Shown: positions 23,193 to 59,729 of the stretch, one piece after another | Layout: each line of letters opens with the position of its first letter | How positions within the stretch are numbered: the stretch's first letter is position 1 | NCBI GenBank assembly: GCA_903825245.1 | Contig: CAIJZX010000016.1 | Coordinates: forward strand, 2,100 to 66,099 | Direction: 5' to 3' | Length of the DNA stretch: 64,000 nucleotides | Origin: Candidatus Kerfeldbacteria bacterium | GTDB lineage: Bacteria; Patescibacteriota; Patescibacteriia; SBBC01; CAIJZX01 | Position numbers and translations under genes: made by a program | The notes under the pieces: model-generated | Told to the model about the DNA's origin: nothing | Database searches by the model: none | Seen by the model: only the letters and a program-made list of their open reading frames with translations

Positions 23193-23408
23193 CGTGGCCT
23201 CCGCTTGAGTTTGAGTGACAGAACAATACGAACAACACAGTATAGTCCTGATAGGGGATTTTGTCAAGCGCCGAAAAAAACTGTATTCAAGGATGGTAAA
23301 AAACAGGGGTTGACAAATACTTTCCCTGGTGGCAAGATGCGCCCGCATCCGCAGGTTCGCAACTCGCCCTTTCCACACCAATTGCAGCCTTGCTGCAGGA
23401 GGAATCAT

Positions 23409-23879: not shown

Positions 23880-23994
23880 CCTCGCTCCCCACCACCACAG
23901 AACATCGTGGTGGTTTTTCTTTTGACAATATTTTCGTCTCATGATAGACCCGTAGCAACGAAACCGCTCTTCCCACCTTTCCACGAGGATTCCG

Positions 23995-24297: not shown

Positions 24298-24298
24298 C

Positions 24299-24330
24299 AC
24301 CTCCATCGTACGACGGAGGTTTTTTGTAAG
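24299..24330 (+). terminator. Rho-independent terminator (CCTCCATCGTACGACGGAGG + TTTTTTG)
   Basis: Stem-loop followed by T-run directly after 23995..24297. Confidence 0.7.
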
Positions 24331-24381
24331 AAAAAACGGCAGGCTCAAAGTCGAGCACTGCCGTTAGAAAAAGATCAAAAT

Positions 24382-25236: not shown

Positions 25237-26021
25237 GAGCGCTCCTTCTTCAAGAAGGCATAGGGGGTAACCAGCCGCTTGATGAGTACAATCACGTTGT
25301 CCTGAACAAGTCCAAGCGCCATAACCGAAATCATGATGGCGAGTACTTGCGGGATGTTGAAGTGCTTATTCTCGGCGATGATCATTGTGCCGACACCGCC
25401 CTCACTCTTAACGATTCCTTCGACCATCGGCAGCATCATCCAGCCAATTCCAGCATTCTGCCGGATGGCATCGATGACTTTGTCGAACGTGCCAAGGACA
25501 ACGACTTCCCACGTCACCTGCCACTCATTCATGCGCAAGGTTCGGGCGTAGTCGTAGCGATCATCTTTGACATCACTGACAATATCGTTGATGGAGGTTG
25601 TCAGGAAGACCATGATGGCGAAGATGAGCAAGGCCAACTTCAGCCGATGCCCGCCGCCGAACATCATGGTGAACAGAAACGGCAGACCGACAAAACCCAG
25701 GTAGCGGAGCGTCGTCACGAACGTCACGAACGGCCGCATAACCGGAAGTCTACCTGAATACGCGAAGGCCATCGAGAACACCGACGCCAGGAAAATCGCT
25801 TGCACGAATGTCCAGAAGCTGTTGATCAGTTCCTGACCCAGTCCGTCGTTCATCCACATATCACCAAAGGCTTGCGTCACCTCCAGCGGTCGTGGAATGA
25901 TCGGACTGGCCATGAACAGCCAGTTGAACATGAGAAAGACCAGAACCAAAAGCGTCAGCAAGCGCCGAGCCAATGGACCGACCTCCTCATTCGGATAGAA
26001 CACACGCCAGATTTTGCCCAT
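25233..26021 (-). CDS. ABC transporter permease (binding-protein-dependent inner membrane component)
   Basis: Multi-TM protein, 4-bp overlap with ATPase gene. Confidence 0.75.
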   Translation of the reverse strand: MGKIWRVFYPNEEVGPLARRLLTLLVLVFLMFNWLFMASPIIPRPLEVTQAFGDMWMNDGLGQELINSFWTFVQAIFLASVFSMAFAYSGRLPVMRPFVTFVTTLRYLGFVGLPFLFTMMFGGGHRLKLALLIFAIMVFLTTSINDIVSDVKDDRYDYARTLRMNEWQVTWEVVVLGTFDKVIDAIRQNAGIGWMMLPMVEGIVKSEGGVGTMIIAENKHFNIPQVLAIMISVMALGLVQDNVIVLIKRLVTPYAFLKKERS

Positions 26022-26100
26022 CGATCCTCCGAAAAAGAAAAGGCGCTCAGTTCCACGAGGAACCGAGCGCCATAGGTGAGCTTCAGATCACCTGGCCCAA

Positions 26101-27927
26101 CTACTGCGAGGTGGACTTGAGGACGATCTGCACCCGGCGATTCTTCGCACGACCCTCGGGGGTGTCGTTCGAAGCAACCGGATTCATCTGACCATGTGCG
26201 AAGACTCGGACGCGACCCGCCGGGAAGTTGGTCGGCGAATGCGACTCGAGCCACTGCTGAACGGCGAAGGCACGGGCTTCCGCCAAACGCTGATTGTCCT
26301 GCAGACGCTGATTGGCGTCCGGGGAGCCAGTGTTGTCGGTATGACCATGCACCTCGACGTACGTGCCGCCCGCGATACCCAAATTCTGGATCAGGTCGCG
26401 GAGCACGGATTCGGCCTTGGGCGTGAACGTCGCCTGACCGGAGTTGAACGTGACGTTGTAATCACGATCGCCCACCGTCGCACCGGGAGTTCCAGAGAAC
26501 GTCTCCGGAGCCTCGGCCGGGGTGGGATTGGGGTTCTTGGCCTGGAGATCCGCCACATACGAGACATTGATGACCTCGGACGCGGGCGGAAAACTCGGCA
26601 CCAGGCGCGGATACTGCTGAACCACGATCTTGCCGAACATTTCGTAGGTGGCCTGAACCAGGTTCTGACCACCGGCGCGTTCGAGTCCGAAGACGTGGAT
26701 CGCATCGGACAGGTTGCAAACCGACGAGCCGCCCAGTGACACCGGAATTCCCTGCTTGTCGGGCTGGATGACACCGTCGAAATACTTCAACCAGTATCCC
26801 GCACCCTTGTTCTCGCCGTAGAGCGCGTTCTCGATCTCGGCGGCATGCTGCTTCGCCTGCGGGTAGGCACGAATCTGGTCCGCTGCGTCGTAACTGGCCA
26901 TGAGCATGTTGTCCAAGGTCGTCCGGTTCGCGTCGTCCCACTTCTTGATACCGATAACCACGCACGGCATCTGGTACTTGTTCTCCTTGGTGCTCAGAAT
27001 CGACACCAGGCCGCCCTTCTTCTCGGCTGCCGTCACGTCGCCCGGAGTCCAGGTAGCGATACCAGTGACACCGATCGTCACGGTTTCACCCGTCGGAACA
27101 CCGTTCTTGACGACTTTGCGAGTCTCGGTATAACCGCTGATGTACTTTGCCGCGGCATCGATGTAGTTATCGGCATTGAGCACGTTGATCGCGTCGGGGT
27201 CAAACGTCTTCTCGTCCGGATTGACCTTGAGGCCATTGTTGCCAGCCCAGATCACCAGGATGTTCCAATCCCCATCACGCAGGACGCACGCCACAAGCTT
27301 GCCAATCGCGAGACGCGGATTCGTCAGCCACGCCGGCGGACCCATCAGCTTGTCTTCACCTCGCGAATAGCCGATGACGCCACAGATTTCGGCGATGAAA
27401 TCTGCACCGAACTTCTTGAGCTTCGGATTGATGCCCTGCAGGAACGCTGCGGCACCGTCGCCCATGATGGTAACAAAGTGCACGCCCTCCGTTGGCTGAG
27501 CAACACCCTTATGCATCTCGTCCGCGGTCTTGAGTAGGTCGCTCTGCAACTGGTTGTTGTCGTCCTGACGAGACCAGTGCACATTGACACCGTACTTCTC
27601 CATCAGCGAACCGCGAGTCGTACTCGGGCCACCGATGGCATACAGCAGACCCATCTGCGCGTTCCAGGCATACCCTTCCATCCGGACCTGCGGCCCATTG
27701 ACCTGGGCCGGTTCCGAACTCGGAATGGGCAGCATGGACACCGAGGTAGCAGAACCACCGGCGTTGTCCGACGGCAGATTGACCGCCGACGGAACACTGG
27801 CCGCCGTGTGCTTGGCACCCGGGATGAGACCATGCGTCACGAGGAACTTACCGCCGAATATGACCGCCGCGATGATGAACAGGCCGATCATGATGATACC
27901 GCCAGACTTGGGACCGCCCTGTGCCAT
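26101..27927 (-). CDS. Membrane-anchored fusion protein: periplasmic substrate-binding-protein-like domain + C-terminal OmpA/MotB peptidoglycan-binding domain
   Basis: N-terminal TM; C-terminus …VEVHGHTDNTGSPDANQRLQDNQRLAEARAFAVQQWL…AHGQMNPVASNDTPEGRAKNRRVQI is a clear OmpA-like domain; central region has SBP-like character (lower confidence). Confidence 0.6.
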   Translation of the reverse strand: MAQGGPKSGGIIMIGLFIIAAVIFGGKFLVTHGLIPGAKHTAASVPSAVNLPSDNAGGSATSVSMLPIPSSEPAQVNGPQVRMEGYAWNAQMGLLYAIGGPSTTRGSLMEKYGVNVHWSRQDDNNQLQSDLLKTADEMHKGVAQPTEGVHFVTIMGDGAAAFLQGINPKLKKFGADFIAEICGVIGYSRGEDKLMGPPAWLTNPRLAIGKLVACVLRDGDWNILVIWAGNNGLKVNPDEKTFDPDAINVLNADNYIDAAAKYISGYTETRKVVKNGVPTGETVTIGVTGIATWTPGDVTAAEKKGGLVSILSTKENKYQMPCVVIGIKKWDDANRTTLDNMLMASYDAADQIRAYPQAKQHAAEIENALYGENKGAGYWLKYFDGVIQPDKQGIPVSLGGSSVCNLSDAIHVFGLERAGGQNLVQATYEMFGKIVVQQYPRLVPSFPPASEVINVSYVADLQAKNPNPTPAEAPETFSGTPGATVGDRDYNVTFNSGQATFTPKAESVLRDLIQNLGIAGGTYVEVHGHTDNTGSPDANQRLQDNQRLAEARAFAVQQWLESHSPTNFPAGRVRVFAHGQMNPVASNDTPEGRAKNRRVQIVLKSTSQ

Positions 27928-27950
27928 GGTGAAATCTCCTTCTTTGGGGT

Positions 27951-27964
27951 TTTGGTTTTTGTGG
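27951..27964. promoter_or_regulatory. Palindrome TGACGT-AA-ACGTCA in promoter region of the ABC operon
   Basis: Read from sequence between 27928 and 27987. Confidence 0.3.
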
Positions 27965-27987
27965 ACTATGACGTAAACGTCACGTCG

Positions 27988-29043
27988 CTACTTCTTGTCG
28001 TTCGGATCGTCTGCAAACAAACGCTGGAGGCCTTCGCCGCCAGTCGTCGTCGAACGCGCCGCCGGAACGCGCTCCCGACCATCACGGAACACCGGCAAAG
28101 CCGATGCATCCGAATGCGCCGAGAGCAATCCCTTGACCGCGGTGCTGCGTTCACGCCAGGCCGACAGTGCCTTCTGCCCCTGCTCCGTTCGGAGCTGAGT
28201 AAGCAGATCACCACTGACCATGGCATTTGAGTCCCGAACGAATGAACGGAACTCCGCCAACTTGGTGTTGAAGTCCTCGACAGCCACTTCCGATGCCCGG
28301 TCGTAGAACCAGGCACCAGCAGAACCGCCCGATAGGATGCGCCGCAGGTTCTGGAATGCCTTGTAGGCGCCCCCCATGATAGTGCGCTTCTTGGTGATTG
28401 CTCGAACAAAACTCTCTGCATCAGCGATCTGGTCGCCAACCGCAGTGAGCATCGTCCTGAGCTCTTCCCTTATTTCTTCAAAGACCGTCCGCATGGAATC
28501 GAATTCGTCCGCATTGGCGTTGCGCCGTGTGGCGTCATTCGTCAGAGTTGTGACCTTGCCGGTCTCACCACGTCGTTGCGCGATGTCGGCCAGCTGCATG
28601 TCCTTCTCTGCTCCAGCGCGTTCGTGCGCACTTTCGTCAGCCAGAGTTGTAATCTGGCCTTCGATGACCGATTCCTGCTTTGCTCCATCCGCTGCTTCTT
28701 TCTTCATCTCCTTGACACGACTCTCGAGGATCGAGATCGGATCGAGATCGATGAAACCCATGGCAACAAAACGCACGAGCGACTCGAAGACGTACCGAAC
28801 GAGGGTTCGGAACCGAGGATTAGCGACGAGCAGAAGGATGGCAACGAGGATACCACCGAGCCAGGCCATGTGAACACCGGTCAAAAGAATATCGACCAGC
28901 GTCGGACCGAGCTTCCACAGAAGCAGGAGTCCAGCCAGGATAGCAATAACCAGTCCACCCTTGGCGAAATTCTTCTCTGGTCGCTGCCAGATGGACTTGA
29001 TAGAACTGCCAGTCGAGACGACCGGCAGATTTGAGATACTCAT
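27988..29043 (-). CDS. Hypothetical membrane protein: two N-terminal TM helices followed by long coiled-coil region
   Basis: ORF translation; possible PspA/TelA-like coiled coil (speculative). Confidence 0.5.
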   Translation of the reverse strand: MSISNLPVVSTGSSIKSIWQRPEKNFAKGGLVIAILAGLLLLWKLGPTLVDILLTGVHMAWLGGILVAILLLVANPRFRTLVRYVFESLVRFVAMGFIDLDPISILESRVKEMKKEAADGAKQESVIEGQITTLADESAHERAGAEKDMQLADIAQRRGETGKVTTLTNDATRRNANADEFDSMRTVFEEIREELRTMLTAVGDQIADAESFVRAITKKRTIMGGAYKAFQNLRRILSGGSAGAWFYDRASEVAVEDFNTKLAEFRSFVRDSNAMVSGDLLTQLRTEQGQKALSAWRERSTAVKGLLSAHSDASALPVFRDGRERVPAARSTTTGGEGLQRLFADDPNDKK

Positions 29044-29058
29044 GTCAGCTCCGATCTC

Positions 29059-29679
29059 CTACTTGAGGTAGGGTTCGAGGTTGGCAGCGTCATTCGCCAG
29101 CCGCTTCTGAACAGCGGCAAAAGCGATATCGAAATCCGTCTGCATCTTTGCCGTCTTTTCCTTGCCGGCCTGGATCTGTCCACGCAGCGTCTGCTGCTGG
29201 GTAACCAGGTCGGTGCGCTGCTGCTGCAACTGCGCGAGTTGCGTGTCAATGGTAGCCAGCTGGCTGTCCATCTCCGTAACCCGGCGCTCCTTGCCGCCGA
29301 CATTCTCGTCCGTCTCGGTTTTGAGCCGCTGAGCGAATTCCACCCGCTCGGTTTCGAGCAGTTGAATTCGCGCGGTCAGCGCCGCCTTGATAGCCGGTGG
29401 CGTGTGCCCATGCAACTTCGCCACCATCTGCAGTGCCTTGCTGTTCCGCTTGGCGGGATCGGGAATGTCTTGCAAATCCGTCAGCATGTTCATGAAGTCG
29501 GTGTACGGCTTGGCCGTTCCGGCATCAACGTCATGCATGATTGCTTCCTCGTAGTGACTCGTGTCACCGGTCGCGACAACCGTCGGCGTACTTGCCGTCG
29601 TGGTTGTCATCGGAGTCGAGGTCACTGTCGGCACGCTCGGACGTGGGGTCGAGGGCTGTTCGCCCTTCTCGTCCCCCAA
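29059..29679 (-). CDS. Hypothetical coiled-coil protein with Thr/Pro-rich N-terminus (TTG start or internal ATG)
   Basis: ORF translation; Q/E/L-rich heptad-like C-terminal half. Confidence 0.45.
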   Translation of the reverse strand: MGDEKGEQPSTPRPSVPTVTSTPMTTTTASTPTVVATGDTSHYEEAIMHDVDAGTAKPYTDFMNMLTDLQDIPDPAKRNSKALQMVAKLHGHTPPAIKAALTARIQLLETERVEFAQRLKTETDENVGGKERRVTEMDSQLATIDTQLAQLQQQRTDLVTQQQTLRGQIQAGKEKTAKMQTDFDIAFAAVQKRLANDAANLEPYLK

Positions 29680-29792
29680 ATCCCAAACATGTTCACGGAT
29701 GAATGCCTTGAGCTTAATCTTTGACAGACCGGCGACCTTACACTACTTTTCCATTTTTGTCAAGAGTTAACTCCGTTATTTGGCTAATATTA

Positions 29793-29823
29793 AAGAAAAA
29801 ACCGATTGTTTGTTACAATCGGT
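29793..29823 (-). terminator. Rho-independent terminator (ACCGATTGT-loop-ACAATCGGT + U-run on minus strand)
   Basis: 9-bp perfect inverted repeat at 29801-29823 with A-run 29795-29800 on plus strand. Confidence 0.7.
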
Positions 29824-29833
29824 ATAGTGTGCC

Positions 29834-30073
29834 CTACTTCGGCGACTTGCTGAGCGTCTGCTCGCAAGCGGTCTTGGCCTTCCGCGCGAGGTAGTCGCGC
29901 ACCTGCGTGGCCATCTTCAGACCGTCGTCCCCGAGGCTGCCCAGGAAATTGGCCGTTACGTCGCCGACGTTCTTGGCTGCCTGGCCGGCTTGGTCGAGGT
30001 CGATAGTAATCTTCCCTCCACGCCGCCTGATGAACTTGGGAACGATCTTGGGAGGAGCTGTCTGCTTCGGCAT
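29834..30073 (-). CDS. Hypothetical small basic protein (79 aa)
   Basis: Good SD (AAGGAG-5-ATG); own terminator. Confidence 0.5.
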   Translation of the reverse strand: MPKQTAPPKIVPKFIRRRGGKITIDLDQAGQAAKNVGDVTANFLGSLGDDGLKMATQVRDYLARKAKTACEQTLSKSPK

Positions 30074-45299: not shown

Positions 45300-46382
45300 C
45301 TATACTACCGGTGCTGCTACCTTCCCCAGCATACCTTCCAGTTCCGTCGGGTCCGGGCTACATGCGAAGGCATCGTCGTTGAAGATGTGCTTGGCCAGTA
45401 GAAGCTGCAGGAGCGACTGGTTCATGGTCTGGTCGCCGTACTTCTTGCCAGCCTGCATGAGGCTGTAAATCTGGTGGAACTTGCCCTCGCGCATGACAGA
45501 CTTGATCGCTGGCGTACAGACGAGGATCTCGGCAGCAAGGATTCTACCCGTTCCGCTGCTGTGCGGGATCAGCTGCTGCGTGATCACGCCTTCGAGTGCG
45601 AACGCGAGTCGGGTGGTGGTCTGCTTCTGCTGAGCCTCAGGGAACATGTCGATGATGCGGGTGACCGTGTCGTACGCTGATCTGGTGTCCATCGAGGCGA
45701 GAACCAAGTGGCCGGTCTCGACGACGGTGAGTGCTGCTTCGATAGTCTTCGGGTCGCGCATCTCGCTGATCAGGACGACGTCCGCGTCCTCGTGCAGGGC
45801 GTGCTTGAGTGCAGTGGGGAACGAAGCCGTGTCGGCGCCGATCTCGCGCTGGCTCACGAGGCACTGCTTGTGGTGGTGGATGTACTCGATCGGGTCCTCG
45901 ATCGTGAGGATGTGGCCCTCGCGAGCGGTGTTGATCTCGTCGATCATTGAGGCCAGCGTGCTGGACTTACCGCTCCCTGAGGGACCGGTGACCAGCACGA
46001 GGCCCTTGCGCCGAGACGTCAGCATGCGGACGATGTCAGGCAGGCCGAGTTGTCCGGGCAGGAGGATGTCGTAGGGAATCCTGCGGATGCTCATGGTCAC
46101 CACGCCGCGCTGCATGAACACATTAGCGCGGAATCGCGATAGCCCCTTCACGCTGAAGGAGAAGTCGAACTCTTTGGTGGCTTCGAAGGTCTTGCGCTGC
46201 TCGTCCGACAGGACGGTGTACGCGAGCGAACAGCACTTATCGGGCGTGAGTTCCTCGAGCTCGGTCAACGCGATCGAGCCCCTGATGCGGAGGGCGGGGC
46301 GGGCGCCGGCACTGATGTGCAGATCCGATGCTCCGCGTGCCACCATCTCCTCGAGTAGCTGACGAAGCGTTAGCTCGGGCAT
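45300..46382 (-). CDS. pilT: Type IV pilus retraction ATPase PilT (orphan, GC-rich)
   Basis: PilT N-terminus LRQLLEEMVARGASDLHISAG…, Walker A GPSGSGKS; SD GGAGG at internal Met. Confidence 0.85.
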   Translation of the reverse strand: MPELTLRQLLEEMVARGASDLHISAGARPALRIRGSIALTELEELTPDKCCSLAYTVLSDEQRKTFEATKEFDFSFSVKGLSRFRANVFMQRGVVTMSIRRIPYDILLPGQLGLPDIVRMLTSRRKGLVLVTGPSGSGKSSTLASMIDEINTAREGHILTIEDPIEYIHHHKQCLVSQREIGADTASFPTALKHALHEDADVVLISEMRDPKTIEAALTVVETGHLVLASMDTRSAYDTVTRIIDMFPEAQQKQTTTRLAFALEGVITQQLIPHSSGTGRILAAEILVCTPAIKSVMREGKFHQIYSLMQAGKKYGDQTMNQSLLQLLLAKHIFNDDAFACSPDPTELEGMLGKVAAPVV

Positions 46383-46488
46383 GCTGAACCTCCGGTTGGA
46401 GAGAACAGGTGAACGTCTGTTATGAATGAACGTCTTCACAGACCCTAACACTTTATAGTATCAAGTCAATAACTAGAAAATATTCATA

Positions 46489-53382: not shown

Positions 53383-53689
53383 GACAACGGGATAAGCAAA
53401 ACGACGACACCTACCTCCCCACGGTTTAGACAATATTTGTGGCGTTCTTTGTATTCAACAAGGTATGTATGCAGAGGAATCCTGTCTGCAACCCCTCCTT
53501 CCAGCGCACTGGAAGGAGGGGTGTTGACGACAAAGCTGTGCATGACGTTCTTGATGACAGCAATTTTACGTCCAAAAATGATGAAAACGACGGGGAGGTA
53601 GGCGCTTTCAAAGTGCTATTTATCCACACCTTTTTACCCTAATCTTAGGGAAAATCCAACCTTGCGGTCGGAGGCGGTATTGACATTTT

Positions 53690-53718
53690 CGGAGGCGGGG
53701 AGTATCATGCTTAGTCAA
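53690..53718 (+). promoter_or_regulatory. Strong sigma70-like promoter TTGACA-17-TATCAT
   Basis: Hexamers at 53690-53695 and 53713-53718. Confidence 0.55.
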
Positions 53719-53724
53719 CTTAAA

Positions 53725-54249
53725 AAAGCACCTTCCAATCTCGGTCCGAATTGCCAGGAGTTGTGTCGATATAAGTCGCTACAACCCCTGGCGATTCATT
53801 GCAGTCGGTTGGCCACCGAGCGTGTCTCGCACTAGGGGAAGTTACAAGTAACTTCAGCGAAGCGGTAGTACGCAACACGACGCGGTGGAACAAACAGACT
53901 GTAGCACTCGGAGCACTCGCTGGTGGAACACCCGCAGCACACTGGTTGCACCGAAGCACTCCGGAAGTACCGATTCACCGCGCGGTGGTCGGAGAAGTCC
54001 GATACGTAAACCTGACCGCAGTACCTAGCAGTACGTGGCAGAACGGTGGGGGAGTTGAAAGACGTTTCATCTCTCCCACCCCATTTCCCGAATACATCTC
54101 AAGTGAGGTGTCGTCAGGAAAGGATGCACCATACAATTCATGTCAGAACAATCGTTGAGGAGCGAAAGTTCGACATAACAAACTGTTCATCCATAAAGGG
54201 TGAGGTCTGTTGTCGACGCGCGTCCACAACAAGCCTCACCTTTTTTGTT
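53725..54249 (+). ncRNA. Candidate ~530-nt noncoding RNA (promoter-to-terminator transcript without credible ORF) in GC-rich island
   Basis: Bounded by promoter above and a strong intrinsic terminator; internal ORFs (53799.., 54046..) lack SD and look compositional; internal short repeats (GGTGGAACA, AGCACTCGG/AGCACTCCGG). Confidence 0.4.
54199..54249 (+). terminator. Rho-independent terminator (GGTGAGGTCTGTTGT…ACAACAAGCCTCACC + TTTTTTGTTT)
   Basis: Long GC stem followed by T-run. Confidence 0.75.
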
Positions 54250-54393
54250 TGGCCCTCCCCTTGATAAGGGGAGGTGAAGGAGGGGTGAGGAGGACAGGCA
54301 CCGCGGCCAGCCGCCGTGTGTTGTTGGTTGCGGAACCTGTCCTGACGAAACGAAGGTTGATCTCTAACGCGCTAAAAGCGCACGGAGAATACC

Positions 54394-54747
54394 ATGTTCA
54401 ATACGTTCGTCGTTGTGGCACTGATCTGCCTCATCATCTGGAACCTGATCCAGCGCAACCAGATCAAGCATCAGGAAATGGTCATCGAACGCATCAAGCA
54501 CAACTCGGCGGCGTTCGAGATTCGAACGATGGCCATCGACTACTACCGCGAACACGGCACTTGGCCGACCATCAAGGAACTCCGAGTGGATCGTGACATG
54601 GACAGTCTCGAGTGTACGCTCTGGGCAGACTGGCAGATCAAGGCCAGGTTCGAGAAGAACTATACCAAGCAGTGGCTTCTCGAGATCTGGATCCCAGGTG
54701 CGAATGTCTGCCGCATCTTTCACACCGGTATTCGCACTGCCGCGTGA
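54394..54747 (+). CDS. Hypothetical membrane-anchored protein with pseudopilin-like motif (…AIDYYREHGTWPTIKEL…)
   Basis: SD GGAGA; N-terminal hydrophobic helix; weak similarity to GspG/type IV pilin core. Confidence 0.45.
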   Translation: MFNTFVVVALICLIIWNLIQRNQIKHQEMVIERIKHNSAAFEIRTMAIDYYREHGTWPTIKELRVDRDMDSLECTLWADWQIKARFEKNYTKQWLLEIWIPGANVCRIFHTGIRTAA

Positions 54748-54891
54748 GCAGCACCTTCTACACCGCAACACAAGTTACGGTGAAGGCTATGACTACGGTC
54801 TGGCCTCTCACTCGAACGCTTCAGCTTTAGTTGGAGAGTTCAAGTGAGGATAGTCAGTAGCCAGCACCGTCACATTCGAAAGGAGTCAGTC

Positions 54892-55221
54892 ATGTCCTCT
54901 GCTGTGAAGCAGGAGAAGGACTACACCACGTGCCTTCGGCTGCACGTGTACGAGGTTCCGGCCGAGAGCGAGATCGCTAAGATCGCTTCTCGGACCATCA
55001 TCCACGCCGTTCCCGAGGACAAGTGCCTGGCCTGCATCAACGAACGACTGCACGACCTCCGGCACGACGCTGAGTTGGACGATCTGTGCCCAATCGATCC
55101 TGATCAGCCGAACGGCTGGGCACTCGACGCGGACGATGCCGAGAAGCAGTACGAGGACGTCCGACGTCTGTACGTGACTGAAGTGGACCACGAGTACCGA
55201 CTCATGCCGGATCTCAGCTAG
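54892..55221 (+). CDS. Hypothetical acidic Cys-containing protein
   Basis: SD AAGGAG; internal Met start. Confidence 0.45.
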   Translation: MSSAVKQEKDYTTCLRLHVYEVPAESEIAKIASRTIIHAVPEDKCLACINERLHDLRHDAELDDLCPIDPDQPNGWALDADDAEKQYEDVRRLYVTEVDHEYRLMPDLS

Positions 55222-55622
55222 AGCAACAAGAACAAGGCCGTGAGCGGATATCGTTCACACGAGTAAGGAGCCTATATACAATCCTTACTCAGCTGTCTTC
55301 CGATGTGTATCGGAACTGATGAGCTCGAAAGAGCGAAACAGCATAGAAGTACATTACATATATTCGAAGAACGCACAGGGAGGGGAGAGCACTCGTTGTC
55401 GGACGGCCACAAGCATGGACGACACGAGCCGCGGTCAAGCAGTAGTCAAGGAGGTTTCGACTTCCGACACCATTGCAAGACAGCATATGACGATAGGGTG
55501 AGCTTGTCTCACCACAACTACCGTTCGCTTGCCTCCCGATGTGTTCTTCGAACATTCCGGTCACCACGACCGAACCCGACCGTGCACGGGTTGACAATGC
55601 GCGGACTGCCAAGGAGGCGCAG

Positions 55623-55787
55623 ATGTGCATGTCGCATGAGCTGGCCAGCCGCATTGCGGAACTTCATCTTCATGGTCGGGCTGACCATCTTCCTCAAGAA
55701 ACGGTCAGCCACGCACTGGAACTGGCGTACGGTGGCAACGCACCGAAGCCGCTCTCCTGCGAGATCGACAACGCCCAGGCCGCGTAG
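55623..55787 (+). CDS. Hypothetical small protein (55 aa)
   Basis: SD AAGGAGG-6-ATG. Confidence 0.35.
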   Translation: MCMSHELASRIAELHLHGRADHLPQETVSHALELAYGGNAPKPLSCEIDNAQAA

Positions 55788-55972
55788 CGGCACGTAACAA
55801 AGTACCTCGGGGTCAACGTTTTCCATACGTTGACTCCGAGCCCTTACTCGAGCATTCCTATCAATTGGATGACGGAAGTCCCAAGCGACGAAATGCTCAA
55901 GTAAGACCAACGACAAACATCAATGCTTGACATATCAAGTACCACTCAACCATCACCACGGAGGGCAAAATC

Positions 55973-56137
55973 ATGTTCCCGTATGCCTTGGCTACCGTGC
56001 TGTTGGTGCTGACGATTTCGGTCGGCATCGCACTGATCAAGAGGCAGAAGTCGCTGTCGGGTCCTTCGAACGAGAACGCACTCGCGTCGAAGCATCCGGA
56101 GTTCAAGAACTTCAACCGCCGCAGTCGCATTCGCTAA
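55973..56137 (+). CDS. Unlisted small membrane protein (54 aa, MFPYALATVLLVLTISVGIALIKRQK…)
   Basis: Not in ORF track (<60 aa); SD GGAGGG-7-ATG; strongly GC3-biased codons; single TM. Confidence 0.4.
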   Translation: MFPYALATVLLVLTISVGIALIKRQKSLSGPSNENALASKHPEFKNFNRRSRIR

Positions 56138-56183
56138 CGATCGTCGGTCACATCCAACAACACTTCCAACCGGAGGTACTGTC

Positions 56184-56612
56184 ATGAAGCAGGCTCTGCT
56201 GGATCAGATCAAGGCGATGGAGCAGTACGTCACCAACGTGTTGGGTCCGAAGTTCCTTCTGGACAGCGCGGCTCACGAGGCCGAGCTGAACGAGTTCCTC
56301 GGTACGGTCAATTTCCAGCGCGGTGGTCGGCTCGGTCTGCTGTACGACGAGCGTGATCTCGAGCTGTGGACCGAACGGCTGCTGGAGAAGCCGATGACCA
56401 CGAACGTCACGATCGGTACGTCCGACATCAAGTTCCTCGGCACCGAGCACACGGCCAAGCGGAGCCGCACCTGCAAGGGCAAGCGGTTCAAGAACAAGCC
56501 GCGTGAGCAGCACCGTCCGAAGCCCCAGCCGGCGAAGGACAAGAACGAGTTCAAGAAGGAGATGGAGAAGCAGCAGCGGACCAAGAAGCGCGGCCACCAG
56601 CAGGCCGCCTAG
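56184..56612 (+). CDS. Hypothetical protein with highly basic C-terminal tail
   Basis: SD GGAGG. Confidence 0.5.
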   Translation: MKQALLDQIKAMEQYVTNVLGPKFLLDSAAHEAELNEFLGTVNFQRGGRLGLLYDERDLELWTERLLEKPMTTNVTIGTSDIKFLGTEHTAKRSRTCKGKRFKNKPREQHRPKPQPAKDKNEFKKEMEKQQRTKKRGHQQAA

Positions 56613-56885
56613 TTTCCAAGCGCCTATCCTTCAACGCCACCCAATTCGTGGGACGAAGAACCGCGGATGTGGGAACAAGAAAGGTGGTGAGTACGATTCG
56701 ATTATGTACCTTCTGAAGCAAAAAAATCAGAACAGCGCGTGACAACGTTGCTGTTCGGGAGAGAAGCTCGATCTTCTCTCCTCCTGTCCGAGTTGACGAC
56801 AACGTCGTCGATTCAGACAGGGGTACCTCAGTATTCCGCAGTCGCTCTTGAAAACTTGTTACTCACTTCCATACCGGAGGTTACC

Positions 56886-57266
56886 ATGCTGCGCACGCTG
56901 TTGCTAGCAACTTGCTTGGTGGTTCTCGGCATGATGTCAACGTCGTGTATCACCGAACCCCAGAATCCGAACCTCGCATGTCTGGTCGGTGTCCACAACC
57001 TCACGAACCAGCCGGCGGCGAAAGTCGTCATTGACGGCGCAGTGGTGATGCGGAACCTTCGTCCCTACGAAGAATGGGTGCTTTCCGGAACCTACATGAC
57101 CGGCTCGTACCATACCTTCGAGGTCTTCACCACGGACACGATCACATCGTCGATTCGATGTAACTTCAGTGTTCCGTGGCATGTCCGCTATACGTGTGCA
57201 AGCACGGCGGTTGCGGTGTATATCGCCGTCAATCCGACCAACGGCGACTACCGCATAAGTGAGTAA
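56886..57266 (+). CDS. Hypothetical secreted/lipoprotein-like protein
   Basis: SD GGAGG; signal peptide with Cys. Confidence 0.5.
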   Translation: MLRTLLLATCLVVLGMMSTSCITEPQNPNLACLVGVHNLTNQPAAKVVIDGAVVMRNLRPYEEWVLSGTYMTGSYHTFEVFTTDTITSSIRCNFSVPWHVRYTCASTAVAVYIAVNPTNGDYRISE

Positions 57267-57275
57267 GCCCAAAGG

Positions 57276-57355
57276 GGAACGCGGACATGGAATGCTCATG
57301 TTGCGTTCCCTGCTTCACTTGAGTTATGCATCACGTATGAATGACTCAAGCGAAG
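57276..57355. repeat. Two-hairpin intergenic element copy 1 (GGAACGC-loop-GCGTTCC; CTTCACTTGAGT-loop-ACTCAAGCGAAG)
   Basis: Paralogous to 58053-58129 with compensatory stem changes. Confidence 0.55.
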
Positions 57356-57435
57356 ATGCACCTTACATATTGCTCTGAAATTTACAACGTTTTTAACGTT
57401 GTTGTTGCAATTCACCCCAGCAAACGGAGAAGCCG

Positions 57436-58038
57436 ATGAAAGGCATGATGCTGATGATGCTGTGTGTCCTGATGTTCGCCTCGGCGGCAACCGCGCAGAC
57501 GACGGAAACCATCCACCCGACGACCAGTATTGTCTCGGTCTGGAACGAGTACCAGACGACTGATGGTGGCTTGGACAATTTCAATGTCTGGGCCAACGTT
57601 TGGCCGAGCGATGGGAAGTTCGGGTTCTACCTGTACACGCAGGGTGCTCAGCCTTCGTTCACGCAGACGTACGGCGGTCCGGCTGTTCGCATGTTCGACG
57701 GTCAGTTCGAACTCGGCGCTGGACTCGGTGTCGAGAACGTCGACGGCAACGTCGGTCTGCGGCGATCTGTGTACGGCATCGTCACCCACCAGAAGTTCTC
57801 GAGTGCCAACTGGTACGAGAGCTCCAGGAACAGTGGGTGGTGGTTCCTGACCCAGGACATGTACTCGGTCACGCCGACGCTCGAAGCCGGTTACCGTCTG
57901 CAGCGTTTCCTCGGTGGCGGTCCCATGGTCCGCTATACCGCAACGTTCAAGAACTGGGCGTTCCAGCCTTACGGCGCGGCGCTATACGACGGCGATCGTT
58001 TGAACCCGATCCTCGGGTTCTCGATGACGCACAAGTAG
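57436..58038 (+). CDS. Hypothetical secreted beta-rich protein (outer-membrane-protein-like)
   Basis: Signal peptide MKGMMLMMLCVLMFASAATAQ; alternating aromatic/Gly beta pattern. Confidence 0.5.
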   Translation: MKGMMLMMLCVLMFASAATAQTTETIHPTTSIVSVWNEYQTTDGGLDNFNVWANVWPSDGKFGFYLYTQGAQPSFTQTYGGPAVRMFDGQFELGAGLGVENVDGNVGLRRSVYGIVTHQKFSSANWYESSRNSGWWFLTQDMYSVTPTLEAGYRLQRFLGGGPMVRYTATFKNWAFQPYGAALYDGDRLNPILGFSMTHK

Positions 58039-58052
58039 TTCAGAGCAATACA

Positions 58053-58129
58053 GGGCAGGGCATCATGAAGCTATGATGTTCCTGCCCGCTTCACTTGAGT
58101 GCTGAAAAAAATCAACATTCAAGCGAAGC
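58053..58129. repeat. Two-hairpin intergenic element copy 2 (GGGCAGG-loop-CCTGCCC; CTTCACTTGAGT-loop-ATTCAAGCGAAG)
   Basis: See copy 1. Confidence 0.55.
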
Positions 58130-58205
58130 TCAGTCGAAAGATTGCGCTTCCGATCCTTACAACTTGCTACAAGTTACACAATACCTCAACCACGGAAGGG
58201 AAGCT

Positions 58206-58859
58206 ATGCGCTTCGTTTCTGATGCAGACCGTAAGGAGCTTGAGGCCTTGATGTTGGCCGACCTCTATTACATCCAGGCACAGGAAGACAACCAGCGCTG
58301 GTATGAAGCACTGGGGAGCACTCAGTCCGAGCAGGACATGCTGGGCACTGTCAATCGCGTCACCAACATGATCGGCAGCGAAACCGCTGACGAGCTCGAC
58401 GATCTGTACGAGTTGAGCAGGATGGTCGAGAGCAACGACGACACCATCGTTTACATCGACGAACGCCACCAGCTCGGCTTCGCTCTGTACTATCGTCGGG
58501 TCAAGTTCATCCACGGCCTGCCGGTCATGACGAAGCGCCAGCGCCATCCGTATGACGGTTCGTGCCGCTACGCCAAGCTCCATCACGACAACAAGATGTA
58601 TGATCGCGAGCGTAAGCTCGAGCATCTCCGCCGCTGGCAGCCCGAAGATCTCGACGAGGTAAATGACCACGACGAGGATTCGGACATTCTTTCGGCAGGC
58701 GAGCTCGTCGCCGAAGACCTGCGCGAACGTGAACGTGATTGGGCGATCGACGAACTCATCGGCAGTGGCGCGGAGTATTACGACGATGAATTCGAAGATG
58801 ACGAGACCGGCCCATACGTCGGTTACGGCAAAAATCGTTCGTACCACACCAACCCGTAA
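58206..58859 (+). CDS. Hypothetical acidic protein
   Basis: Internal Met with SD-like GGAAGGGAAG. Confidence 0.45.
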   Translation: MRFVSDADRKELEALMLADLYYIQAQEDNQRWYEALGSTQSEQDMLGTVNRVTNMIGSETADELDDLYELSRMVESNDDTIVYIDERHQLGFALYYRRVKFIHGLPVMTKRQRHPYDGSCRYAKLHHDNKMYDRERKLEHLRRWQPEDLDEVNDHDEDSDILSAGELVAEDLRERERDWAIDELIGSGAEYYDDEFEDDETGPYVGYGKNRSYHTNP

Positions 58860-58873
58860 GAAAAGGGGATCAC

Positions 58874-59440
58874 ATGAATCGAATCCTGTTGATCGCGGCG
58901 ATGTTCTGCATCCTGCTCGCTACGGCGGTGCAGGCTGCTCCGGACACGCTGAAGGTGCACCTGAACGGTGGCCAGCCGATGCTGGTCACGACTGAGGATA
59001 TGCCGGCGTCGACGTACCGTTTGACCGACCAGCGAGTCGATCAGATCGTCGATCACTCGGTCAAGACAGCGCTCACTGCTTCTCGACCGCGCATCGTCTA
59101 CCGCTATCGGTATATCGCGACCGAACCGATGGTCATTCACGACACGACCGTCGTGGCCGCGCCGTTTACCTGGTGGCAGTCGAACCATATGGGGTCCATT
59201 CCGGACTGGTTCTGGCCGCTGTTTACCGTCGTGGCGCTCGCGGTGCTTCTCGGTATCGCGCTGGGCGGCGGTCTCCGCGATCGTCCCGGACGTGACGGTC
59301 GGGATGGACTTCCGGGTCGTGACGGAAGGGACGCGATGTCGGAAGCCACTGATTCGCCGATGTTGCGACTCCAGTATCTGCCTGAGGGCACGGAGATCAC
59401 GATCAAGCGCGATCGTCCTCCTGTTGTTCCGAAGACGTAG
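58874..59440 (+). CDS. Hypothetical secreted protein with TM helix and short collagen-like GRDGRDGLPGRDGRD tract
   Basis: Signal peptide, SD AAAAGGGGA. Confidence 0.5.
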   Translation: MNRILLIAAMFCILLATAVQAAPDTLKVHLNGGQPMLVTTEDMPASTYRLTDQRVDQIVDHSVKTALTASRPRIVYRYRYIATEPMVIHDTTVVAAPFTWWQSNHMGSIPDWFWPLFTVVALAVLLGIALGGGLRDRPGRDGRDGLPGRDGRDAMSEATDSPMLRLQYLPEGTEITIKRDRPPVVPKT

Positions 59441-59729
59441 TTGTAGCAAGCGGTTCCGGTGGTGCATTGAGCCTTACGCTCGGTGCACCACCATCTTTCT
59501 CGAAACTTTCAGCAAACTGGAAGTTTCAAGCAAGGTAGCGCTGACTCATTGACATCGCAATATACTTGGCTAACACTATACGTGTTGGCGGCAACTCTGG
59601 CTTCACTAGTGACGTTCGTACACAGTAACGATGAATGTCCTGCCTCTGGCAGGCTCCTCCATTCGTTGATGCGGCGTGCGAACCCCTCCTGGTGGAGCCG
59701 GAGTTGTTTTGTATTTGGTTTACTTGCAA

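What the first reader, a model, noticed from the sequence alone, without database searches (positions are those of the whole stretch)
54394..59440. 5-kb GC-rich island of nine same-strand, SD-preceded genes encoding small secreted or membrane proteins
All nine genes are on the plus strand, each with a GGAGG-type Shine-Dalgarno sequence. The products are 54-217 aa and carry signal peptides, single TM helices, a lipobox-like Cys, a beta-rich OMP-like protein, a highly basic tail, acidic proteins and a collagen-like GRDGRD tract. None has a recognisable enzymatic domain. Composition is foreign. This looks like an accessory effector or surface-remodelling cassette or the cargo of a degraded mobile element; no integrase is present.
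Basis: partly seen in the sequence, partly recalled or inferred. Interest (0 to 1): 0.6.

Follow-up and report, generated by a model that had tools for sequence, protein, structure and literature searches.

The report
Hypervariable envelope-gene and RNA module in CPR
The nine small genes are real, but they are the fast-changing part of a larger module (two previously undescribed structured RNAs, a hammerhead ribozyme and a porin-like beta-barrel) that sits at the same chromosomal spot in every retrievable relative of this tiny Kerfeldbacteria-like bacterium, so it is not a one-off foreign insertion.

Summary
Nine plus-strand ORFs (54-217 aa) lie at 54394-59440. They have GC3 of 0.67-0.89 against 0.38-0.57 for host genes and no hit in Pfam, NCBIfam, PHROGs or PADLOC. 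The host is a CPR bacterium (closest: a Ca. Kerfeldbacteria MAG; MurJ 81% identical). The genes lie between a DUF4012 envelope gene of a surface-polysaccharide locus and murJ-lepA. An equivalent block of small genes sits directly after the DUF4012 gene in all six related loci retrieved; murJ closes it in the three that reach that far. Each block is richer in GC3 than its flanks. The protein sequences are almost unalignable, although the flanks are 57-84% identical. It comprises a promoter/terminator-bounded small RNA (A), a roughly 165-275-nt multi-helix RNA (B; 35 covarying pairs) and families p3, p4, p5, p9 and p7. p7 is predicted to be a 12-stranded transmembrane beta-barrel, which is unexpected in a lineage thought to lack an outer membrane. 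A type III hammerhead sits 7 nt after a -10 box here and in one relative. Other cargo varies between loci (a Tad4-like gene, a deoxyribosyltransferase-like gene, a kinase). No integrase, att repeats or phage matches were found. Best reading: a recombination-exchanged, positionally fixed envelope module with its own RNAs. Its function is inferred, not shown.

The parts
53641..53708 (+). Left border: conserved motif AATCTTAG(C/G)(C/G)AAAAT, then a sigma-70-type promoter TTGACA-17-TATCAT for small RNA A
   Evidence: The promoter scores 11/12. The motif and the -35/-10 boxes are conserved in all six loci aligned and also in L025.
53715..54250 (+). Small RNA A. The conserved 3' core is GCACCATACAATTCA..GAAC..CGUU-GAGG-AGCG..GUUC (54125-54180). 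An intrinsic terminator lies at 54197-54250. This genome and L017 carry an insertion of about 400 nt (about 53730-54120).
   Evidence: No Rfam hit. MFE z-score is -7.5. The 7-locus alignment A10 gives 57 pairs, 28 with compensatory changes.
54291..54343 (+). Conserved long hairpin after the terminator (GGACAGG-..CGCGG..CAG..GCCGUGUGUUG..UUGCGG..-CCUGUCC)
   Evidence: Inverted repeat I9. The outer and inner stems covary across 7 loci.
54394..54747 (+). p1: 117 aa, N-terminal TM helix, ends ..RTAA; lineage-specific cargo
   Evidence: No homolog in the related blocks.
54892..55221 (+). p2: 109 aa, acidic (pI 4.6); lineage-specific cargo. L017 has a Tad4-family gene at this position.
55254..55282 (+). 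Promoter-like site TTCACA-17-TACAAT; the -10 box ends 7 nt before the hammerhead
   Evidence: 10/12. L017 has the same arrangement: TATAAT, then 7 nt, then the hammerhead.
55290..55344 (+). Type III hammerhead ribozyme; predicted cleavage after GUC (CAGCUGUC|UUCC...)
   Evidence: RF00008, 36.0 bits (GA 48.5), E 3.3e-6, full-length match with a complete catalytic core. Still the only hit at E 4e-5 over 5.4 kb. The L017 copy (7126-7180) scores 48.5 bits, equal to GA, and differs by compensatory changes in helices I, II and III.
55368..55548 (+). Structured RNA B: an 18-bp closing stem AGAACGCA.AGGGAGGGGAG / CUUGCCUCCCGAUGUGUUCU, seven inner helices, invariant ACAAGCAUGG, and a hairpin GGAGG-UUUCGA-CUUCC
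   Evidence: Eight copies in seven loci. RNAalifold gives 62 pairs, 35 with double compensatory changes. 91% of cells are paired against 77% in shuffles (0/500) and 36-42% in slid controls. No Rfam family matches.
55623..55787 (+). p3: 54 aa, ends ..AQAA. Placed by position and motif resemblance in a small family found in L017, L018, L025, L010 and L011 (..AEAEQVLGVSRTQL.., HTH-like by eye).
   Evidence: L017-L018 E 5e-11. L025-L018 E 8e-7 and L025-L017 E 9e-6. Assignment of the window copy to this family is by eye only. No Pfam hit.
55973..56137 (+). p4: 54 aa, N-terminal TM helix plus basic tail (pI 11.5)
   Evidence: Ortholog L017 7912-8091, E 1.4e-5.
56184..56612 (+). p5: 142 aa, helical N-terminal part plus a lysine/arginine-rich tail ending ..QQAA
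   Evidence: A profile of the L003, L017 and L018 members hits p5 at E 4e-6, residues 50-142. L025 member. All members end in ..(Q/H/R)AA.
56886..57266 (+). p6: 126 aa, signal-peptide-like N-terminus with Cys (possible lipoprotein), beta-rich; lineage-specific cargo
   Evidence: Identical copies only on ENA contigs L001 and L002.
57436..58038 (+). p7: 200 aa, cleavable signal peptide (..ATA|QT) plus a predicted 12-stranded transmembrane beta-barrel
   Evidence: AF2 pLDDT 74.7, pTM 0.65. Foldseek against PDB: designed TMB12, KdgM, NanC, FapF, PcoB; TM 0.5-0.6, E down to 1e-4. The family is rare: 42 representatives among 1.84 billion. Members occur in L003, L010, L011 and L025.
58206..58859 (+). 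p8: 217 aa, very acidic (51 D+E), no TM; lineage-specific cargo
   Evidence: Only itself among 5.8 billion clusters.
58874..59440 (+). p9: 188 aa: signal peptide, beta-rich ectodomain, TM helix, (GXY)5 collagen-like tract, conserved C-terminal LPEGTEITIKRDR
   Evidence: Orthologs in L017 (36-41% identity) and L025/P0048 (41-44%), plus P0049. The AF2 model is uninformative (pLDDT 50.9).
59458..59492 (+). Terminator-like hairpin that closes the module (15-bp stem followed by a T-rich tail)

Best explanation
The nine genes are the protein-coding part of a positionally fixed, hypervariable cell-envelope module about 5.9 kb long (about 53640-59495). It is specific to a Kerfeldbacteria-like CPR clade. 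The module sits between the DUF4012 gene of a surface-polysaccharide locus and murJ-lepA. Its constant backbone is small RNA A, structured RNA B, and families p3 (small, HTH-like), p4 (TM plus basic tail), p5 (helical plus basic tail), p9 (bitopic membrane protein with a collagen-like tract) and p7 (Sec-exported 12-stranded beta-barrel). Other genes (here p1, p2, p6, p8) are interchangeable cargo. I propose that versions of the module are swapped and diversified by homologous recombination through the conserved flanks, as in a 'replacement' flexible island such as an O-antigen or capsule locus. That would explain three things: proteins far more diverged than the flanks, discordant barrel alleles, and a GC3 excess over the flanks in every genome (a foreign gene pool, GC-biased gene conversion, or both). 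For expression, I propose that a promoter fires 7 nt upstream of a hammerhead. The hammerhead would self-cleave and remove the 5'-triphosphate leader, leaving a 5'-OH transcript that begins with RNA B and continues into p3-p9. The exported products (barrel, membrane proteins, possible lipoprotein) would then build or modify a surface or host-contact structure under diversifying selection. Shown: gene reality, synteny, families, RNA covariation, ribozyme motif, barrel fold prediction, codon-usage classes. Inferred: recombinational exchange, transcript architecture, cleavage, envelope function.
For: Synteny. The flanks align with L003 but the interior does not. L018 and L025 have the same layout: DUF4012, block, MurJ (then LepA in L018). 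L010, L011 and L017 have DUF4012 followed by the block.

Shared families. p7 HMM: L003 E 1.7e-21, L025 2.8e-26. p9: E 8e-30 and 1.6e-32. p4: 1.4e-5. p5 profile: 4e-6.

RNAs. RNA B has 35 covarying pairs, 0/500 shuffles reach the observed values, and slid controls give 9-13. RNA A has 28 covarying pairs. The hammerhead is conserved with compensatory changes and the same promoter spacing.

Divergence. MurJ is 81-84% and DUF4012 57-62% identical among the window, L003 and L025. The barrel is 54% identical to L010, 29% to L025 and unalignable to L003.

Composition. GC3 of the block exceeds the flanks in all seven loci. Ribosomal genes rplJ and rplL are core-like (0.50, 0.53). RSCU of the island correlates at 0.96 with the other GC3-rich genes of the window, but only 0.35 with core and 0.38 with ribosomal genes.

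Envelope context. The neighbours are Bac_transf, two GT4 genes, DUF4012 and MurJ. DUF4012 is linked to CPS/EPS loci (PMC6744442).

No mobile-element marks. No integrase; no att-like repeats; no phage DNA or protein match; nothing in IMG/VR.
Against: No protein has an experimentally known relative, so the envelope function rests on topology predictions and gene neighbourhood. A beta-barrel of the outer-membrane type has no obvious home in a bacterium with a sortase-type, presumably single-membrane envelope. Some cargo in relatives looks phage-like or conflict-related: Tad4 family at E 8.5e-26 in L017, Nuc_deoxyri_tr2 in L025, AAA_33 kinase in L018. Bacterial hammerheads are most often phage-associated (my own knowledge). 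These features fit a viral or defence origin at least as well. No 'empty site' genome and no pair of near-identical strains with different cassettes was found, so recombinational replacement is inferred from divergence alone. Only seven loci were available, several of them short contigs. The hammerhead is present in only 2 of the 7.
Confidence: 0.5

Rival explanations
1. The block is a decayed or domesticated phage, satellite or other integrative element family. It would target one conserved site (next to small RNA A) and carry its own regulatory RNAs, a small HTH protein, a DNA-binding basic protein, membrane proteins and moron-like cargo (barrel and lipoprotein, as with lambda lom/bor).
For: Codon usage differs from host core and ribosomal genes in every genome. 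The block contains a hammerhead ribozyme. Relatives carry a Tad4-family gene, a nucleoside deoxyribosyltransferase-like gene and a P-loop kinase. All products are orphans. The size is 5-8 kb with genes on one strand. It lies adjacent to a strongly promoted small RNA, as with tRNA or tmRNA integration sites.
Against: None of the seven blocks has an integrase, replication, packaging or capsid gene. No att-like direct repeats were found in three genomes with both borders. There is no hit in 50,697 phage records or in IMG/VR. The block is present in every relative, including ones with only 40% identical DUF4012. That looks like long residence rather than repeated integration.
Confidence: 0.2
2. 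The locus is a conflict hotspot: a recombination-exchanged island of anti-phage defence or counter-defence genes, with small TM effectors, a kinase, a nucleoside-modifying enzyme and a TIR-inhibitor-like protein. It would not be a structural envelope module.
For: Cargo is variable between conserved flanks with no integrase, as in core defence hotspots (my own knowledge). Tad4 family, Nuc_deoxyri_tr2 and AAA_33 hits occur in relatives. There are many tiny TM proteins.
Against: PADLOC finds nothing in the nine window proteins. The conserved backbone (barrel, collagen-tract protein, two RNAs) resembles no described defence system. The window copy contains none of the conflict-type domains.
Confidence: 0.13
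3. One reading: a recently acquired, strain-specific accessory island (effector or surface-remodelling cassette) in this genome only.
For: Atypical GC and GC3. Four of the nine proteins (p1, p2, p6, p8) have no detectable relative, even in sister genomes.
Against: A positional counterpart sharing five protein families and two RNAs is present in all six related loci.
Confidence: 0.05
4. Some or all of the ORFs are not genes (chance ORFs in a GC-rich non-coding stretch).
For: Several are very short (54 aa). p8 has no homolog.
Against: Each annotated frame shows a strong third-position GC excess while the spacers are host-like. p4, p5, p7 and p9 have homologs elsewhere. Shine-Dalgarno sites sit at the right spacing. 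The p7 model is confident.
Confidence: 0.02

Closest known systems
Replacement-type flexible genomic islands (O-antigen, capsule or S-layer loci exchanged through conserved flanks)
   Same: Fixed position inside an envelope-biogenesis locus. Conserved flanks with an interior that is unalignable between relatives. Atypical composition. No integrase. Products are exported or membrane-bound.
   Different: The contents are not glycosyltransferases but tiny orphan proteins plus two dedicated structured RNAs and a ribozyme. A recognisable protein and RNA backbone persists across versions. GC is higher than the genome's, not lower. Exchange between strains was not observed directly.
12-stranded outer-membrane beta-barrels of the KdgM/NanC type (also PcoB and the FapF barrel)
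   Same: For p7: a Sec signal peptide, about 170 mature residues, 12 antiparallel amphipathic strands. The best structural matches have TM 0.5-0.6. Most family members end in an aromatic residue, as in the OMP beta-signal.
   Different: No sequence similarity to any Pfam OMP family. The window copy ends ..SMTHK rather than in Phe. The host belongs to a radiation reported to lack an outer membrane and its machinery (PMC6744442) and encodes a sortase.
Type III hammerhead ribozymes of bacterial and phage genomes (Rfam RF00008)
   Same: Complete catalytic core (CUGAUGA, GAAA, GUC), three helices, and compensatory changes between two orthologous copies.
   Different: It sits 7 nt after a -10 box, so it would trim the very 5' end of a primary transcript. 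No second ribozyme is present to release a unit-length RNA. To my knowledge, and from one literature search with no hits, hammerheads have not been reported in CPR.
Prophage 'moron' surface genes such as lambda lom (OM barrel) and bor (lipoprotein)
   Same: A small exported barrel next to a possible lipoprotein, among orphan genes of atypical composition.
   Different: No prophage is present. Lom is an 8-stranded Ail/Lom barrel, unrelated in sequence and strand number.
Multi-helix non-coding RNAs with a long closing stem and a T-loop-like hairpin (e.g. bacterial Y-RNA-like YrlA)
   Same: RNA B has a highly conserved 18-bp terminal stem, a multi-way junction and a GG-UUUCGA-CU hairpin that resembles a T arm.
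   Different: No Rfam model matches. No Ro/Rsr or RtcB gene is nearby. The resemblance is by eye only.

Membership tests
Integrative mobile element / genomic island | Integrase, recombinase or transposase inside or at the border | tested here: not met
   No such domain in the nine proteins, in the flanking genes at 43-64 kb, or in the related blocks.
Integrative mobile element / genomic island | Flanking direct repeats (att) or a tRNA/tmRNA target | tested here: not met
   No tRNA or tmRNA in the window. The best left/right repeats are 9-14 nt at chance level in the window, L003 and L018. A conserved small RNA does lie at the left border.
Integrative mobile element / genomic island | Present in some and absent from other close relatives | tested here: not met
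   All six related loci carry a block after DUF4012, and murJ closes it in the three that reach that far. No empty site was seen. The sample is small.
Integrative mobile element / genomic island | Composition unlike the host core | tested here: met
   GC3 0.67-0.89 against 0.38-0.57. RSCU correlation is 0.35 with core and 0.38 with ribosomal genes.
Outer-membrane beta-barrel protein (OMP) | Cleavable Sec signal peptide | tested here: met
   MKGMMLMMLCVLMFASAATA|QT, with a hydrophobic window at residues 1-22. This rests on sequence inspection; no dedicated predictor was available.
Outer-membrane beta-barrel protein (OMP) | Closed antiparallel barrel with an even strand number and a lipid-facing hydrophobic face | tested here: met
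   The AF2 model has 12-13 strands at pLDDT 74.7, but only one of five models was confident. Foldseek top hits are all TM barrels. An alternating hydrophobic pattern is seen in most strands.
Outer-membrane beta-barrel protein (OMP) | C-terminal beta-signal ending in an aromatic residue | tested here: inconclusive
   The window copy ends FSMTHK and close relatives end TFK, TYK or YKF. Most distant members and the L025 copy end in F.
Outer-membrane beta-barrel protein (OMP) | Host has an outer membrane and BAM insertion machinery | not testable with these tools
   Only 64 kb of the genome is available. It contains a sortase and a SpaA-type surface protein. The literature reports no outer membrane in CPR (PMC6744442).
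Hammerhead ribozyme type III (RF00008) | Conserved catalytic core and cleavage triplet | tested here: met
   CUGAUGA, GAAA and GUC are all present in the window copy and the L017 copy.
Hammerhead ribozyme type III (RF00008) | Score at or above Rfam's gathering threshold | tested here: inconclusive
   Window copy 36.0 bits against 48.5 (below). The orthologous L017 copy scores 48.5 bits, exactly at threshold.
Hammerhead ribozyme type III (RF00008) | Helices I-III supported by covariation | tested here: met
   Helix I UUCCGAU/AUCGGAA against UCUCGA/UCGAGA. Helix II CUC/GAG against UCC/GGA. Helix III closing pair A-U against C-G. Only two sequences.
Hammerhead ribozyme type III (RF00008) | Self-cleavage activity | not testable with these tools
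   Needs an in vitro transcription and cleavage assay.
Replacement flexible genomic island | Same locus and conserved flanks, with non-homologous or highly diverged versions in relatives | tested here: met
Replacement flexible genomic island | Different versions among strains of one species (recent exchange) | not tested
   No same-species genome pair was available. The identical copies on ENA contigs L001, L002, L021 and L022 show only that the same version recurs in those samples.

The most novel reading that the evidence does not exclude
The module encodes a CPR-specific host-contact or outer-layer apparatus. In this reading the Sec-exported 12-stranded barrel inserts into a membrane other than the cell's own cytoplasmic membrane. 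That could be the outer membrane of the bacterial host to which the episymbiont attaches, or an unrecognised outer layer of Kerfeldbacteria. There it would form a conduit, with p9 and the small TM proteins as its anchor. Production would be controlled by two dedicated structured RNAs and a 5'-terminal hammerhead. Hypervariability would track host range or phage pressure.
Probability: 0.15. Interest if true: 0.9.

Novelty: new variant of a known kind. Interest (0 to 1): 0.68.

Why it matters
CPR bacteria make up a large share of bacterial diversity, live attached to other cells, and are thought to have a single-membrane envelope. How they contact and tap their hosts is largely unknown. This locus offers concrete handles on that question. 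First, it contains a rare family of porin-like barrels (42 representatives among 1.84 billion clusters); all four members recovered here on contigs longer than 2.5 kb lie in CPR-like gene contexts. If real, the family challenges or refines the 'no outer membrane' picture. Second, it is a positionally fixed but hypervariable block inside the envelope-biogenesis locus, which is the signature expected of a surface structure under host or phage selection. Third, it includes two structured RNAs with strong covariation that match no Rfam family. Fourth, it has a hammerhead placed to trim the 5' end of a primary transcript, which would be a simple, testable role for a bacterial hammerhead. All of these can be tested by metatranscriptomics, in vitro cleavage assays and heterologous expression.

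Tried and rejected
- Family libraries: Pfam, PHROGs, NCBIfam and PADLOC gave no significant hit for any of the nine proteins. PDB sequence searches for p1, p8 and p9 also gave nothing.
- Phage searches: blastn of the island DNA against phages gave no match. tblastn of p5, p7 and p9 against phages gave no match.
- Pattern scans: the barrel alignment found no confirmed relative in IMG/VR or JGI metagenomes. An RNA B motif is absent from IMG/VR.
- p8 has no homolog other than itself.
- The AF2 model of p9 is too poor to use (pLDDT 50.9).
- I suspected that the window's second GC-rich cluster (24-29 kb: OmpA-domain protein, ABC transporter) was homologous to the cluster beside the barrel gene in L012. 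tblastn shows only a weak OmpA-domain match (E 0.024), so I dropped this idea.
- I considered p1 as a pseudopilin. It lacks the G/FxxxE prepilin motif, so I did not pursue it.
- I considered RNA B or RNA A as a tmRNA (including a permuted form), SRP RNA or 6S RNA. ARAGORN and Rfam give nothing and the architecture does not fit.
- I considered Xer/dif-type integration, as in inoviruses. The GC-skew turning point is near 23 kb, not at the island, and no Rep or Zot genes are present.
- I considered expression-linked codon bias as the cause of the high GC3. I rejected it because rplJ and rplL are core-like.
- I looked for a second ribozyme that could release a circular RNA. None was found at E<=5 or by core pattern.

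Full report
**1. What is in the sequence**

| ORF | Coordinates | Length (aa) |
|---|---|---|
| p1 | 54394-54747 | 117 |
| p2 | 54892-55221 | 109 |
| p3 | 55623-55787 | 54 |
| p4 | 55973-56137 | 54 |
| p5 | 56184-56612 | 142 |
| p6 | 56886-57266 | 126 |
| p7 | 57436-58038 | 200 |
| p8 | 58206-58859 | 217 |
| p9 | 58874-59440 | 188 |

- Seven of the nine have a GGAG(G) motif 5-9 nt upstream. p8 and p9 have weaker purine-rich sites.
- p1 and p4 start with a TM helix. p6, p7 and p9 start with signal-peptide-like segments, and p9 has a second TM.
- p5 is basic (pI 9.8). p2 and p8 are acidic (pI 4.6 and 4.5).
- p9 carries GRDGRDGLPGRDGRD.
- None has a hit in Pfam, PHROGs, NCBIfam, PADLOC or PDB sequences.
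- The ORFs are 0.54-0.615 GC and the excess sits at third codon positions: GC3 is 0.67-0.89 against 0.38-0.57 in 19 other genes of the window. The spacers between the ORFs are host-like at 0.46-0.53 GC.

This frame-locked signal, together with homologs elsewhere for p4, p5, p7 and p9, shows the ORFs are genes.

**2. Host and neighbourhood**

- The MurJ gene downstream is 81% identical to that of a Candidatus Kerfeldbacteria MAG (L003).
- The window also encodes a sortase, a 2170-aa SpaA/DUF11 surface protein, LexA, L10/L12 and RNase P RNA. This is a CPR bacterium with a Gram-positive-type envelope toolkit.
- Upstream of the island lies a surface-polysaccharide locus: Bac_transf, GT4, a Wzz-like gene, GT4, and a 711-aa DUF4012 protein. 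Downstream lie murJ and lepA.
- DUF4012 is enriched in CPR and Gram-positive bacteria and sits in CPS/EPS loci. CPR are reported to lack an outer membrane (PMC6744442).

**3. The block is positionally conserved**

- blastn of L003 against the window aligns both flanks, but nothing between 54172 and 59722.
- L003 nevertheless has a 7.3-kb block of small same-strand genes at that position.
- Five more loci were recovered through the barrel protein, the DUF4012 protein and p9: L010, L011, L017, L018 and L025.
- In all of them a block of small genes starts right after the DUF4012 gene. In L018 and L025 it ends at murJ.
- Pairwise identities among the window, L003 and L025 are 81-84% for MurJ and 57-62% for DUF4012.
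- Block proteins are far more diverged. p9 is 41-53% identical. The barrel is 54% identical to L010 but only 29% to L025, and cannot be aligned to L003 without a profile.
- p1, p2, p6 and p8 have no counterpart in any related block. p8 has no relative at all among 5.8 billion clusters.

**4. A shared backbone**

Profile and BLAST comparisons define these families:

- **p7:** L003 E 1.7e-21; also L010 and L011; L025 E 2.8e-26.
- **p9:** L017 E 8e-30; L025 E 1.6e-32.
- **p4:** L017 E 1.4e-5.
- **p5:** a profile of the L003, L017 and L018 members hits the window protein at E 4e-6. All members end in ..(Q/H/R)AA.
- **p3-like:** a small family in L017, L018 and L025, supported by BLAST. The L010 and L011 members, and the window p3 itself, are placed in it by position and motif only. 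I could not confirm the HTH look of this family.
- **Variable cargo in relatives:** a Tad4-family protein in L017 (PF25186, E 8.5e-26) at the position of p2. Tad4 is a phage anti-Thoeris protein. There is also a nucleoside 2-deoxyribosyltransferase-like protein in L025 and an AAA_33 kinase in L018.

**5.

(a) *Small RNA A.* Directly after DUF4012, all seven loci carry the same set of elements:
- a conserved motif (ATCTTAGCCAAAA);
- a near-consensus promoter (TTGACA-17-TATnAT; 11/12 in the window);
- a conserved core (GCACCnTACAATTCA..GAAC..CGUU-GAGG-AGCG..GUUC);
- an intrinsic terminator;
- a long covarying hairpin.

Overall there are 57 predicted pairs, 28 with compensatory changes. The window and L017 have an extra structured insertion of about 400 nt. 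The whole 543-nt stretch folds with a z-score of -7.5. It matches no Rfam family.

(b) *Hammerhead ribozyme.* In the 401-nt gap between p2 and p3, cmscan finds a full-length type III hammerhead at 55290-55344 (36 bits, E 3.3e-6). Its ortholog in L017 scores 48.5 bits, exactly Rfam's threshold. The two copies keep the whole catalytic core and differ by compensatory changes in all three helices. In both, a -10 box (TACAAT or TATAAT) ends exactly 7 nt before the ribozyme. The ribozyme would therefore sit at the very 5' end of the primary transcript and cut off a leader of about 8 nt.

(c) *Structured RNA B.* RNA B (55368-55548) follows the hammerhead.
- It occurs in all seven loci and twice in tandem in L025.
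- RNAalifold predicts 62 pairs in 8 helices, and 35 pairs show double compensatory changes.
- 91% of cells are paired, against 77% in shuffles (0 of 500 reach the observed values) and 36-42% when partners are slid. Slid controls give 9-13 covarying pairs.
- Variable hairpins are inserted at two positions, as is usual for structured RNAs.
- No Rfam family matches.

**6. The barrel**

- With only three sequences, AlphaFold gives one confident model of p7 (pLDDT 74.7, pTM 0.65). After the signal peptide it is an all-beta meander of 12-13 strands.
- All significant Foldseek hits in the PDB are transmembrane barrels, mostly 12-stranded: designed TMB12, KdgM, NanC, the FapF barrel and PcoB (TM 0.5-0.6).
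- A full HMMER pass over 1.84 billion representatives finds only 42 relatives. Nearly all are 176-203 aa with a signal peptide, and most end in Phe, like an OMP beta-signal.
- One distant member lies on 99-165-kb contigs with CPR-like gene content (DUF5671, pilin, DUF8128). There too it is richer in GC3 than its housekeeping neighbours.
- An OMP-like barrel family in CPR-like contexts is unexpected, given the envelope described for this radiation.

**7. Composition**

- The GC3 excess of the block over its flanks holds in all seven loci, whatever the host's own GC.
- It is not the codon bias of highly expressed genes, because rplJ and rplL have GC3 of 0.50 and 0.53.
- The island's relative synonymous codon usage correlates at 0.96 with the other GC3-rich genes of the window (a T2SSE-type ATPase at 45300-46451 and a cluster at 24-30 kb). 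It correlates at only 0.35 with core genes and 0.38 with ribosomal genes.
- The genome therefore has two codon-usage classes.
- From established knowledge, this fits either import from a GC-richer gene pool (sister lineages such as L010 and L025 are GC-richer) or GC-biased gene conversion at recombination hotspots.

**8. Is it a mobile element?**

- No integrase, replication, packaging or capsid gene occurs in any of the seven blocks.
- No tRNA or tmRNA is present.
- No att-like repeats link the left and right borders in the three genomes that have both.
- There is no DNA or protein match in 50,697 phage records and nothing in IMG/VR.
- Every relative is occupied.
- Against this stand the hammerhead, the Tad4-like cargo and the foreign codon usage.

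I therefore rank a decayed or domesticated element as the main rival (0.2), and a defence/counter-defence hotspot third (0.13).

**9. Best explanation (0.5)**

This is a positionally fixed, recombination-exchanged envelope module of one CPR clade. It has a constant RNA and protein backbone and interchangeable cargo. It is expressed from a hammerhead-trimmed transcript that starts with RNA B, and it produces exported and membrane proteins, including a barrel.

- **Shown:** the synteny, the families, the RNA structures and the fold prediction.
- **Inferred:** the exchange mechanism, the transcript architecture and the envelope function.

**10. Novelty and score**

The kind of locus, a hypervariable island between conserved envelope genes, is known. 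Its content is not: orphan micro-proteins, an OMP-like barrel in a presumed single-membrane bacterium, two new covarying RNAs, and a promoter-proximal hammerhead. I rate it a new variant of a known kind, with interest 0.68. The boldest reading not excluded is a host-contact pore apparatus or an unrecognised outer layer (probability about 0.15, interest 0.9 if true).

Noticed in passing
window 53641-54343: Small RNA gene A with a near-consensus promoter, intrinsic terminator and a covarying post-terminator hairpin. It is conserved after DUF4012 in seven loci and matches no Rfam family. This genome and L017 carry a structured insertion of about 400 nt.
   Followed up: yes
window 55290-55344; L017 7126-7180: Type III hammerhead ribozyme exactly 7 nt downstream of a -10 box in both genomes. 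It would remove the 5'-triphosphate end of the primary transcript. It is absent from the five other related blocks.
   Followed up: yes
window 55368-55548; L003 5745-6038; L010 1985-2168; L011 1181-1366; L017 7227-7450; L018 12683-12905; L025 1715-1937 and 1964-2146: Structured RNA B (8 helices, 35 covarying pairs, invariant ACAAGCAUGG and a T-loop-like GG-UUUCGA-CU hairpin). It is unknown to Rfam and tandemly duplicated in L025.
   Followed up: yes
window ~59540-59720 (also L003 ~9620-9810, L018 ~18520-18720): A third conserved non-coding stretch just upstream of murJ. It has a TTGACA promoter, ..CUCCUCCAUU.., and a terminator-like CTCCTGGTGGAGCCGGAG followed by a T run. It may be a murJ leader or small RNA belonging to the flank rather than to the island.
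   Followed up: partly
window 54808-54870, 57311-57370, 58085-58130; L025 600-650, 1640-1700: A recurrent intergenic element: a hairpin CUCACUCGAAC...GUUCAAGUGAGG (variant GCUUCACUUGAG...CUCAAGCGAAG) followed by GCACCnUACA. The same GCACCnTACAA string occurs in the core of RNA A and after the L017 hammerhead. It could be a promoter or a processing signal; this is unresolved.
   Followed up: partly
window 23000-30000 and 45300-46451: Other GC3-rich genes with the same codon usage as the island (RSCU r=0.96). They are an ABC ATPase, a permease, a 608-aa OmpA-domain protein, 351-aa and 206-aa coiled-coil proteins, and a T2SSE-type secretion/pilus ATPase (GC3 0.80). The genome thus has two codon-usage classes.
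   Followed up: partly
window p1, p3, p5 C-termini (54747, 55787, 56612) and p3/p5 homologs in L003, L011, L017, L018, L025: Many module proteins end in ..AA (RTAA, AQAA, QQAA, RQAA, QHAA, QRAA, EVAA, ATAA). This is reminiscent of ssrA-like ClpXP degrons and may mean regulated proteolysis.
   Followed up: no
L017 6635-7063: A 142-aa protein of the Tad4 family (phage anti-Thoeris inhibitor, PF25186, E 8.5e-26). It lies in a CPR chromosome, immediately upstream of the hammerhead.
   Followed up: partly
window 55539: An ATG inside the invariant 3' strand of RNA B's closing stem (CCUCCCGAUGUGUUC) is in frame with p3 in this genome only. In L017 and L018 it opens short unrelated ORFs, so the conservation is at the RNA level.
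   Followed up: partly
window ~22000-24000: Cumulative GC skew peaks near 23 kb (positive before, negative after). This suggests a replication terminus or origin-type switch, and it coincides with the start of the first GC-rich zone.
   Followed up: no
window 1176-8343: A sortase next to a 2170-aa surface protein with VWA, SpaA, SdrD_B and DUF11 repeats. This is a Gram-positive-style anchored adhesin or pilin in a CPR genome.
   Followed up: no
L012/L013/L014 10001-10552: A distant member of the barrel family stands alone on 99-165-kb CPR-like contigs, next to an NMT1 / VWA / OmpA / TelA / pilin cluster. That cluster is also richer in GC3 than its housekeeping neighbours.
   Followed up: partly
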